Source: Escherichia coli (GTDB lineage Bacteria > Pseudomonadota > Gammaproteobacteria > Enterobacterales > Enterobacteriaceae). Taken from it: a stretch of 50,012 nt of DNA. How positions within the stretch are numbered: position 1 is the stretch's first letter; each line of letters opens with the position of its first letter. Shown one piece after another: positions 41,419 through 41,855 of this stretch. The stretch lies in the NCBI RefSeq assembly GCF_003334315.1, contig NZ_QOWR01000033.1; one strand, given 5' to 3'. A program made the position numbers and the translations under genes. The notes beneath the pieces were generated by a model, which ran no database searches, was not told the DNA's origin, and saw only the letters and a list, made by a program, of their open reading frames with translations.

Positions 41419-41721
41419 ATGAGCGATAAGCAGACTGAAAAGACCATTCAACTGGATACCCCTATCAAGCGTGGTAAAACAGAAATCACCGAAATTGTGC
41501 TGCGCAAACCGCATTCCGGTGCGCTGCGCGGTACACGCCTGCAGGCGATTATGGATATGGATGTGAACGCGATGATGACCGTGATCCCCCGCATCTCCAG
41601 CCCGGCACTGACTGCACAGGAAATTGCAGAGATGGACCCGGCAGATCTCACTGCCATGTCGGTTGAGGTTGTCACTTTTTTGTTGAAGAAGTCGGTGCTT
41701 GCCGGTTTACCGACAGCCTGA
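41419..41721 (+). CDS. E: Tail assembly chaperone (P2 gpE)
   Basis: 100 aa; contains slippery heptamer near its 3' end. Confidence 0.8.
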   Translation: MSDKQTEKTIQLDTPIKRGKTEITEIVLRKPHSGALRGTRLQAIMDMDVNAMMTVIPRISSPALTAQEIAEMDPADLTAMSVEVVTFLLKKSVLAGLPTA

Positions 41722-41855
41722 CGGTTGACGATCTGGTGGCAGATATCGCCACCATTTTTCACTGGCCGCCATCCGTTACTGACGTTATGCCGCTGACCGA
41801 AGTGCTGGAATGGCGGTATAAAGCGATTCAGAGAAGCGGGGCCAACGATGAGTGA
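41419..41855 (+). CDS. Tail assembly chaperone E+E', predicted -1 frameshift product (shift at 41676..41682)
   Basis: -1 frame is open from the heptamer to TGA at 41853..41855, overlapping the T start. Confidence 0.6.
41676..41682 (+). other. Programmed -1 ribosomal frameshift slippery heptamer T TTT TTG
   Basis: Heptamer in the correct phase of the E frame (act ttt ttg). Confidence 0.65.

What the first reader, a model, noticed from the sequence alone, without database searches (positions are those of the whole stretch)
41676..41855. Programmed -1 frameshift signal in tail chaperone E/E'
The heptamer T TTT TTG sits in the correct phase near the end of E. The -1 frame stays open for 58 codons and terminates at TGA 41853..41855, overlapping the tape-measure start. 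This is the conserved arrangement for tail assembly chaperones and supports an intact, functional tail module.
Basis: partly seen in the sequence, partly recalled or inferred. Interest (0 to 1): 0.25.

Follow-up and report, generated by a model that had tools for sequence, protein, structure and literature searches.

The report
P2-type E/E+E' tail-chaperone frameshift site
This is the well-known programmed -1 ribosomal frameshift by which P2-like phages make two tail-assembly chaperones (gpE and gpE+E') from one start codon; it lies in an apparently intact P2-like prophage of E. coli and is ordinary.

Summary
Gene E (41419..41721, 100 aa) contains T TTT TTG at 41676..41682 in the X XXY YYZ phase, 12 codons before its stop. 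The -1 frame is open from 41667 and ends at TGA 41853..41855, 8 nt into the tape-measure gene (ATG 41848).

- The 145-aa fusion carries Pfam Phage_TAC_7 (residues 9-88) plus Phage_P2_GpE (107-143, encoded only in the -1 frame).
- The same heptamer, in the same phase and alignment column, is present in P2, L-413C, Wphi, PSP3, phiCTX, Fels-2 and in Burkholderia and Halomonas phages.
- It is present in all 30 distinct IMG/VR contexts examined (29 TTTTTTG, 1 TTTTTTA).
- Substitutions among relatives are mostly synonymous in the -1 frame only.
- Relatives without the T-run have other in-phase slippery heptamers (G GGA AAG, C CCT TTC, T TTT TTC), which favours ribosomal over transcriptional slippage.

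I found no conserved stimulatory RNA structure.

The gene order FI-FII-E/E'-T-U-D and every Cartapus virion, packaging and lysis gene that has a counterpart in the window are full length. The prophage is about 95% identical to phage Cartapus. About 18% of complete E. coli genomes carry this region.

Novelty: already known (P2 E/E+E'). The only practical point is that routine annotation mislabels E' as a separate 39-aa gene.

The parts
41408..41411 (+). Shine-Dalgarno-like AGGA, 7 nt upstream of the E start codon
   Evidence: Read directly from the sequence.
41419..41721 (+). Gene E, the zero-frame product gpE (100 aa), a tail assembly chaperone
   Evidence: ORF. PHROG 103 'tail protein', E 9e-44. 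Pfam Phage_TAC_7 on residues 9-88, E 9.7e-18. 99% identical to Cartapus CARTA_26.
41664..41666 (+). TGA stop in the -1 frame, 3 codons upstream of the heptamer. Together with the E stop it limits the possible shift window to 41667..41721 (18 codons).
   Evidence: P2 has the equivalent stop at the same distance.
41676..41682 (+). Slippery heptamer T TTT TTG (X XXY YYZ) in the E reading phase. It is the only in-phase heptamer in the shift window.
   Evidence: Invariant in a 10-phage alignment. Present in 29 of 30 distinct IMG/VR contexts; the remaining one has T TTT TTA.
41682..41855 (+). E' extension read in the -1 frame (57 codons plus TGA). With E codons 1-88 it gives gpE+E' of 145 aa.
   Evidence: Pfam Phage_P2_GpE on fusion residues 107-143, E 4.2e-18. 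PHROG 1756 and 6416. 56% identical to P2 E'. Changed codons are mostly synonymous in this frame only.
41736..41855 (+). The 39-aa 'GpE family phage tail protein' CDS (GTG start) that PGAP and many phage records annotate in place of the fusion. Judged to be an annotation artefact.
   Evidence: No GGAG, GAGG or AGGA in the 20 nt upstream. The start-codon column is Ile in the Mannheimia phage and Trp in VP58.5.
41691..41714 (+). Candidate hairpin GUCGGUG(N10)UACCGAC, 8 nt downstream of the heptamer. Tested and not supported as a conserved element.
   Evidence: Covariation is no better than shuffles. The hairpin is absent from the P2 group and from divergent relatives that keep the heptamer.
41848..44925 (+). 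Gene T, the tail tape measure protein (1025 aa). Its start overlaps the E' stop by 8 nt.
   Evidence: PHROG 28, E 9e-198. TIGR01760, E 2e-93.
40849..41364 (+). Gene FII, the major tail tube protein, immediately upstream of E
   Evidence: TIGR01611, 167.8 bits against a cut-off of 102.75. 100% identical to Cartapus FII.
39667..40839 (+). Gene FI, the tail sheath protein
   Evidence: PHROG 23, E 1e-145. 99.5% identical to Cartapus FI.
44922..46504 (+). Genes U (44922..45407) and D (45404..46504), which complete the FETUD-type operon
   Evidence: PHROG 76 and PHROG 52. Full length relative to Cartapus.

Best explanation
The site is the P2-type programmed -1 ribosomal frameshift of the tail chaperone gene pair E/E+E'.

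Ribosomes start at ATG 41419. Most terminate at TGA 41719 and produce gpE (100 aa). A minority slip back one nucleotide when the P and A sites hold UUU and UUG of U UUU UUG (41676-41682). The tRNA-Phe re-pairs on UUU and the tRNA-Leu re-pairs on UUU. Translation then continues from GUU 41682 in the -1 frame to TGA 41853. The product is gpE+E' (145 aa), which shares residues 1-88 with gpE and carries the conserved E' domain.

By analogy with lambda G/GT, the shared chaperone domain is expected to coat the tape measure protein T, whose gene starts inside the E' stop. The E' domain of the rarer fusion is expected to recruit the tube protein FII, and the fixed ratio is set by the slip frequency.

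Shown here: the anatomy, the homology of both parts, nucleotide-level conservation of the heptamer, and purifying selection on the -1 frame.
Inferred: that slippage occurs in this prophage, its frequency (about 10% in P2, from my memory of Christie et al. 2002), and the chaperone roles. No stimulatory RNA element appears to be needed.
For: Anatomy.

Homology:
- PF10109 plus PF06528 on the fusion.
- PHROG 103 plus 1756/6416.
- The E' peptide is found by tblastn in 351 phage records, including P2 at 56% identity.
- L-413C, Wphi, PSP3 and KS5 annotate a joined -1 frameshift CDS at the homologous site. The Fels-2 record notes a functional gpE+E' if translational slippage occurs.

Heptamer:
- It is identical and in phase in 13 of 16 annotated loci across several genera, and phiCTX, which has no annotation, has it too.
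- It is invariant in alignment A1 while the flanks vary.
- The codon before it changes amino acid (Thr, Gly, Leu) but keeps T at its third position.
- 30 of 30 distinct IMG/VR contexts, retrieved with an anchor that excludes the heptamer, keep it.

Selection: against ST11-OXA245phi3.1, changed codons are 14 synonymous to 7 non-synonymous in the -1 frame, against 2 to 19 in each other frame. Third-position excess is seen in all comparisons.

Mechanism: relatives without the T-run have heteropolymeric in-phase heptamers, G GGA AAG in the Mannheimia phage and C CCT TTC in ST16-OXA48phi5.4.

Literature: in P2 the -1 shift occurs at TTTTTTG and yields E (91 aa) and E+E' (142 aa) with no downstream structure (PMC3091744, citing Christie 2002 and Xu 2004). 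The lambda G/GT model is described in PMC5009743.

Against: - Nothing here shows the fusion protein. All evidence is comparative.
- UUUUUUG has no demonstrated stimulator here, so the slip frequency cannot be predicted.
- A GTG (41736) in the E' frame could in principle start a separate 39-aa product, as PGAP annotates.
Confidence: 0.93

Rival explanations
1. Transcriptional slippage. RNA polymerase stutters on the T6 run and adds one extra U to a fraction of transcripts. Ordinary translation of those transcripts would then yield E+E' without any ribosomal slip.
For: The site is a homopolymer of six T. One relative has seven (L018). An inserted U would give the same protein. The experiments on P2 that I know of (fusion proteins) do not obviously separate the two mechanisms (my recollection; the paper could not be read).
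Against: - Six residues is short for efficient polymerase slippage, which is usually seen with runs of about 8-9 or more (established knowledge, not tested here).
- Family members without a homopolymer have classic heteropolymeric X XXY YYZ heptamers in phase at the equivalent place, G GGA AAG and C CCT TTC. These can only work on the ribosome.
- The conserved unit is a T-run followed by G or A, which keeps the heptamer form intact.
Confidence: 0.04
2. Independent initiation. E' is a separate small gene translated from GTG 41736 as a 39-aa protein, as annotated by PGAP and in many phage records, and no frameshift occurs.
For: RefSeq annotates 'GpE family phage tail protein' as its own CDS, as do Cartapus, SEN8 and the Klebsiella phage records. 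The most conserved part of E' begins close to that codon. P2 has ATG at that column.
Against: - There is no Shine-Dalgarno core in the 20 nt upstream.
- The column is Ile in the Mannheimia phage and Trp in VP58.5, so it is not a conserved start.
- The -1 frame is open and alignable from the heptamer onward. The first 14 -1-frame codons after the heptamer are unchanged between the window and Fels-2.
- The heptamer is conserved at nucleotide level against synonymous alternatives, which independent initiation would not explain.
- P2 E' is reported as a frameshift extension of E (PMC3091744).
Confidence: 0.02
3. Non-functional relic. The heptamer and the open -1 frame are inherited from an active phage but no longer serve any purpose in a decaying prophage.
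For: It is a prophage in a chromosome and induction was not tested. The prophage lacks the invertase gene that Cartapus carries next to the tail-fibre segment.
Against: - Of the 46 Cartapus CDS compared, 38 have stop-free counterparts in the window. Almost all of these are full length, and those for virion, packaging and lysis genes are 82-100% identical.
- E' is 100% identical to the Cartapus E'.
- Variation among relatives still follows -1-frame codon structure.
Confidence: 0.01

Closest known systems
Bacteriophage P2 genes E and E+E' (FETUD operon; Christie et al. 2002, J Bacteriol 184:6522, as cited in PMC3091744)
   Same: - Position between the tube gene FII and the tape-measure gene T.
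- Identical heptamer T TTT TTG in the same phase and alignment column, with a -1-frame stop 3 codons upstream.
- E' of the same length (57 codons) ending 8 nt into T.
- Same Pfam families. No downstream RNA structure.
   Different: - Only 49% identity over the fusion and 56% over E'.
- gpE is 100 aa rather than 91 aa, because the zero-frame stop lies 12 codons rather than 6 after the heptamer.
- T is 1025 aa here, against 815 aa for P2 T (2448-nt CDS).
Fels-2, SEN8 and RE-2010 (Felsduovirus), Cartapus (Elveevirus) and Klebsiella P2-like prophages
   Same: 78-98% nucleotide identity over E/E'. The Cartapus E' is 100% identical and its E is 99% identical. The Fels-2 record already notes that translational slippage gives a functional gpE+E'.
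   Different: Nothing material. This is one more copy of a very common prophage module, found in 999 of 5,426 complete E. coli genomes.
Phage lambda G/GT tail assembly chaperones (Levin 1993; Xu 2004, 2013, 2014; summarised in PMC5009743)
   Same: [quoted passage not shown]
- The shared domain binds the tape measure and the extension binds the tube protein.
   Different: - No sequence similarity.
- The lambda heptamer is G GGA AAG (from memory).
- Lambda has a non-contractile tail.
- The binding roles of gpE and gpE+E' are inferred by analogy, not shown.
E. coli dnaX -1 frameshift (A AAA AAG with an upstream SD-like element and a downstream hairpin)
   Same: Simultaneous-slippage heptamer decoded by E. 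coli ribosomes.
   Different: dnaX depends on two stimulators. Here the downstream hairpin candidate fails the covariation test. The upstream GAGG or AAGG is absent in phiE202 and the Halomonas phage.

Membership tests
P2 gpE / gpE+E' tail assembly chaperone pair | The gene lies between the tail tube gene (FII) and the tape-measure gene (T) of a contractile-tail module. | tested here: met
   FII 40849..41364 (TIGR01611 above its cut-off), E 41419..41721, T 41848..44925 (TIGR01760, PHROG 28).
P2 gpE / gpE+E' tail assembly chaperone pair | The zero-frame product belongs to the gpE chaperone family (Pfam PF10109, Phage_TAC_7). | tested here: met
   PF10109 on residues 9-88, i-E 9.7e-18. PHROG 103, E 9e-44.
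P2 gpE / gpE+E' tail assembly chaperone pair | The -1 frame downstream encodes the E' domain (Pfam PF06528, Phage_P2_GpE). | tested here: met
   PF06528 on fusion residues 107-143, i-E 4.2e-18, covering profile positions 1-37 of 37. 56% identity to P2 E'.
P2 gpE / gpE+E' tail assembly chaperone pair | A slippery heptamer in the E phase lies within the overlap of the two frames, at the position homologous to the P2 site. | tested here: met
   T TTT TTG at 41676..41682, in the same alignment column as in P2.
P2 gpE / gpE+E' tail assembly chaperone pair | E' has no translation initiation signal of its own. | tested here: inconclusive
   A GTG at 41736 is in frame but has no SD core upstream. That column is not a start codon in two relatives. 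Initiation cannot be excluded from sequence alone.
P2 gpE / gpE+E' tail assembly chaperone pair | The fusion protein is made at a minor, fixed fraction and is essential for tail assembly. | not testable with these tools
   This needs mass spectrometry, reporter assays or genetics. It is reported for P2 only (PMC3091744, citing Christie 2002).
Programmed -1 ribosomal frameshift (simultaneous slippage) | X XXY YYZ heptamer in the zero-frame phase that allows both tRNAs to re-pair. | tested here: met
   U UUU UUG. The P-site UUU re-pairs on UUU perfectly. The A-site UUG re-pairs on UUU with the first two positions kept (the pairing is inferred).
Programmed -1 ribosomal frameshift (simultaneous slippage) | The shift site is conserved at nucleotide level beyond what the protein sequence requires. 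| tested here: met
   All 7 columns are invariant in 10 phages whose flanks vary. 29 of 30 distinct contexts are exact and the other is TTTTTTA. The third-position T of the preceding codon is kept although the amino acid changes.
Programmed -1 ribosomal frameshift (simultaneous slippage) | A stimulatory element (downstream hairpin or pseudoknot, or upstream SD-like sequence). This feature is common but not obligatory. | tested here: not met
   RNAalifold consensus -0.62 kcal/mol. The 45 nt downstream fold with z -1.5. Candidate-hairpin covariation is 0.146 against 0.130 in shuffles, matched by 103 of 500 shuffles. P2 is also reported to lack one (PMC3091744).
Tail assembly chaperone fold (HK97 gp10 / XkdN-like) | Structural similarity of the chaperone domain to solved tail assembly chaperones. 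| tested here: inconclusive

The most novel reading that the evidence does not exclude
In the Fels-2, Elveevirus and Klebsiella sub-clade, which includes this window, the 7-bp hairpin GUCGGUG(N10)UACCGAC lies 8 nt downstream of the heptamer. It might be a clade-specific stimulator that raises or tunes the E+E':E ratio above that of P2, which lacks it. It is kept at 7 of 7 pairs in 21 of 30 distinct contexts, with one U-A to C-G double change. This would be a lineage-specific modulation of a textbook frameshift.
Probability: 0.1. Interest if true: 0.25.

Novelty: already known. Interest (0 to 1): 0.07.

Why it matters
It matters little for discovery. This recoding event was shown experimentally for P2 and is recognised across tailed phages.

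It has practical value for annotation. The correct gene model is join(41419..41682, 41682..41855), giving a 145-aa gpE+E'. The 39-aa 'GpE family phage tail protein' CDS that PGAP assigns here, and that sampled RefSeq records across the 999 of 5,426 complete E. coli genomes carrying this region also show, is not the right model.

The intact site, together with full-length structural genes, is one indication that the prophage could still build tails.

Tried and rejected
1. Downstream stimulatory RNA.
- The 80 nt downstream fold with z -2.9, but the 45 nt downstream give only z -1.5.
- A consensus fold over 10 phages finds nothing.
- I followed a specific 7-bp hairpin through 30 distinct contexts and tested it formally. 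It is no better than shuffles, and divergent relatives that keep the heptamer lack it. Rejected as a required element.

2. Upstream SD-like GAGG or AAGG, 7 nt before the heptamer.
- It is present in the enterobacterial members but encodes a conserved Glu/Lys-Val.
- It is absent in phiE202 and the Halomonas phage. Not pursued.

3. Solved structures.

4. NCBIfam has no model for E or E+E'.

5. The primary P2 paper (PMC135442) is not held. Its content is cited through PMC3091744, and points I recall from it are marked as memory.

6. The heptamer count as evidence: 29 copies in the window, so the motif alone is not informative.

Full report
**Observation**

- The region was read directly and translated in both frames.
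- ORF E starts at ATG 41419, preceded by AGGA at 41408-41411. It ends at TGA 41719-41721 and encodes 100 aa.
- The six-T run plus G occupies 41676..41682. The E frame reads ACT|TTT|TTG, so the heptamer is T TTT TTG in the X XXY YYZ phase. It covers codons 87-88, 12 sense codons before the E stop.
- The -1 frame has a TGA at 41664-41666. It is then open to TGA 41853-41855.
- After a slip, 57 sense codons (41682..41852) would be read, giving a 145-aa fusion.
- The -1 stop lies 8 nt into the next gene (ATG 41848).
- The possible shift window, between the upstream -1 stop and the E stop, is only 18 codons. The heptamer is the only in-phase X XXY YYZ within it.
'58 codons' is right to within the counting convention.

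**Is it more than chance?**

- The heptamer alone is not. It occurs 29 times in the window on both strands.
- An open stretch of 57 codons has a probability of about 0.07-0.08 for this composition.
- I listed all 77 in-phase X XXY YYZ heptamers in ORFs of at least 90 aa. Only three lie within 12 codons of the zero-frame stop and open a -1 frame of 50 or more codons past it.
  - One (44907) simply runs into gene U.
  - One (49369) lies at the end of ORF 49004..49381 in the host flank. I did not follow it up.
  - The third is this site. The 126-nt gap between E and T would otherwise be non-coding.
- The homology evidence below is what settles the question.

**What the two frames encode**

- The fusion matches Pfam Phage_TAC_7 (PF10109, residues 9-88, 9.7e-18).
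- Only through the -1 frame does it also match Phage_P2_GpE (PF06528, residues 107-143, 4.2e-18, full profile length).
- PHROGs gives family 103 for E and families 1756 and 6416 for the extension.
- The neighbours are:
  - sheath FI (39667..40839);
  - tube FII (40849..41364, TIGR01611 above its cut-off);
  - tape measure T (41848..44925, TIGR01760);
  - U and D.
- This is the P2 FETUD gene order.

**Context**

- The window is E. coli chromosome. Its left flank holds rimO, dacC, mdfA and deoR. Positions 41400-41900 are 100% identical to strain Ecol_224.
- It carries a P2-like prophage from the integrase gene (12256..13386) to ogr (about 46595..46813). ybjL lies on the right.
- The prophage is 92-97% identical at nucleotide level to phage Cartapus (Elveevirus, Peduoviridae) over most of its length.
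- Of the 46 Cartapus CDS compared, 38 have a stop-free counterpart in the window. Almost all of these are full length. The tail set is FI, FII, E, E', T, U, D, V, W, J, I, R, S and X, and H aligns over residues 1-448 of 473.

**Conservation of the signal**

- tblastn with the 57-aa E' peptide finds 351 phage records. They range from 100% identity (Cartapus, Klebsiella prophages) through 56% (P2, L-413C, Wphi) to about 45% (phiCTX, Burkholderia, Vibrio and Halomonas phages).
- I fetched 16 annotated loci and located the frames mechanically.
  - T TTT TTG is present in the E phase at the same alignment column in P2, L-413C, Wphi, PSP3, YenM_06.16-2, KS5, phiE202, Halomonas 4908, Fels-2, SEN8, ST11-OXA245phi3.1 and Cartapus. 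The unannotated phiCTX locus also has it.
  - The three exceptions have other in-phase slippery heptamers: T TTT TTC (VP58.5), G GGA AAG (Mannheimia 1127AP1, which its authors also note) and C CCT TTC (ST16-OXA48phi5.4).
- In a 10-phage nucleotide alignment the seven heptamer columns are invariant while the flanks vary.
- The codon before the heptamer encodes Thr, Gly or Leu in different phages but always ends in T.
- A scan of IMG/VR used an anchor 66 nt downstream that does not include the heptamer. It returned 30 distinct contexts: 29 have T TTT TTG and one has the synonymous T TTT TTA, all in phase.
- L-413C, Wphi, PSP3 and KS5 annotate the joined -1 frameshift CDS. The Fels-2 record says slippage gives a functional gpE+E'.

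**Selection on the -1 frame**

- In gap-free comparisons of the 171 nt after the heptamer, substitutions concentrate at the third position of -1-frame codons: 4/2/10 against Fels-2, 5/4/16 against ST11-OXA245phi3.1 and 22/13/28 against P2.
- Changed codons are mostly synonymous only in that frame. Against ST11 the counts are 14 synonymous to 7 non-synonymous, compared with 2 to 19 in each of the other two frames.

**Mechanism**

- The best-supported mechanism is simultaneous slippage of the P-site tRNA-Phe and the A-site tRNA-Leu on U UUU UUG.
- According to PMC3091744, which cites Christie et al. 2002 and Xu et al. 2004, the P2 shift occurs at TTTTTTG. It yields E (91 aa) and E+E' (142 aa) from one start, and there is no downstream structure.
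- My recollection of the 2002 paper is that E' is essential and that the frequency is about 10%. I could not re-read it.
- I looked for stimulators.
  - The 45 nt downstream fold no better than shuffles in the window (z -1.5) and in the P2 group (z of 0 or above).
  - The family consensus fold is empty.
  - A 7-bp hairpin 8 nt downstream (41691-97 with 41708-14) is kept in the Fels-2, Elveevirus and Klebsiella sub-clade with one U-A to C-G double change.
  - Divergent relatives that retain the heptamer lack it.
  - Its covariation is not better than shuffles: 0.146 against 0.130, matched by 103 of 500 shuffles.
  - The region codes in two frames, so the test has little power.
  - I treat the hairpin as unsupported.
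- The roles of the proteins are inferred by analogy with lambda G/GT (PMC5009743). In that model the chaperone domain sits on the tape measure and the extension recruits the tube protein.
- An AF2 model of the fusion is confident (pLDDT 87).

**Rivals**

- Transcriptional slippage on T6 would give the same protein. It is disfavoured because the run is short and because relatives use heteropolymeric heptamers.
- Independent initiation at GTG 41736 is the PGAP gene model.
  - It lacks an SD.
  - The column is not a start codon in two relatives.
  - It would not explain the nucleotide-level conservation of the heptamer.
- A dead relic is unlikely, given the intact module and the ongoing purifying selection.

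**Verdict**

- The feature is already known. It is one more copy of the P2 E/E+E' recoding site, in a prophage module present in 999 of 5,426 complete E. coli genomes.
- Interest is low. The useful by-product is the corrected gene model.

Noticed in passing
window 20520..25641: Cargo block between the DinI-like gene and the portal gene of the prophage. It holds DarT (20520..21101) and DarG (21106..22077), matching the PADLOC DarT and DarG models, and three ORFs (22739..25641) matching PADLOC models Hp1, Hp2 and Hp3. It looks like an anti-phage defence hotspot of a P2-like prophage. Cartapus has different genes at this position.
   Followed up: partly
window 38316..39667: Downstream of the tail-fibre gene lie a second tail-fibre-assembly gene and a fibre C-terminal fragment on the minus strand (38719..39150 and 39154..39591). 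This looks like an invertible host-range segment. No DNA invertase gene follows it, whereas Cartapus has a Gin-like invertase at this spot. The only inverted repeat found is the pair of tfa 5' ends. The switch may be frozen.
   Followed up: partly
window 41736..41855, and RefSeq E. coli genomes generally: PGAP and many phage submissions annotate E' as a free-standing 39-aa 'GpE family phage tail protein' starting at GTG, instead of the frameshift fusion. The region is present in 999 of 5,426 complete E. coli genomes, and 11 of the 12 sampled records show this three-CDS layout.
   Followed up: yes
window 44907..44913: An in-phase G GGG GGA lies 3 codons before the T stop. Its -1 frame is gene U, whose ATG is at 44922. 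It is most simply the Shine-Dalgarno sequence of U, 8 nt upstream of that ATG, rather than a second shift site. A T-U fusion was not examined in relatives.
   Followed up: no
window 41947..42390 (inside gene T): The 5' part of the tape-measure gene has no blastn match of 150 nt or more to Cartapus. T is only 88% identical at protein level, while the flanking genes are 98-100% identical. This suggests a mosaic or recombinant segment within T.
   Followed up: no
L030 (IMGVR_UViG_2778261510_000014), locus positions about 857-863: A natural variant of the shift site, T TTT TTA instead of T TTT TTG. It is synonymous in E (Leu), changes the first E' codon from Val to Ile, and is still a valid slippery heptamer.
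   Followed up: yes
L011 (Mannheimia phage vB_MhM_1127AP1) 989..2013: In this record only a 128-aa hypothetical gene is annotated between E and U. No tape-measure-sized gene is annotated there, and its shift site is G GGA AAG. The reason for the missing tape measure was not examined.
   Followed up: no
window 49369..49375: An in-phase A AAA AAT sits one codon before the stop of ORF 49004..49381 in the host flank beyond ybjL. It opens a 50-codon -1 frame. This is probably chance, since that frame lies antisense to the neighbouring minus-strand ORF 49411..49683. Not examined.
   Followed up: no
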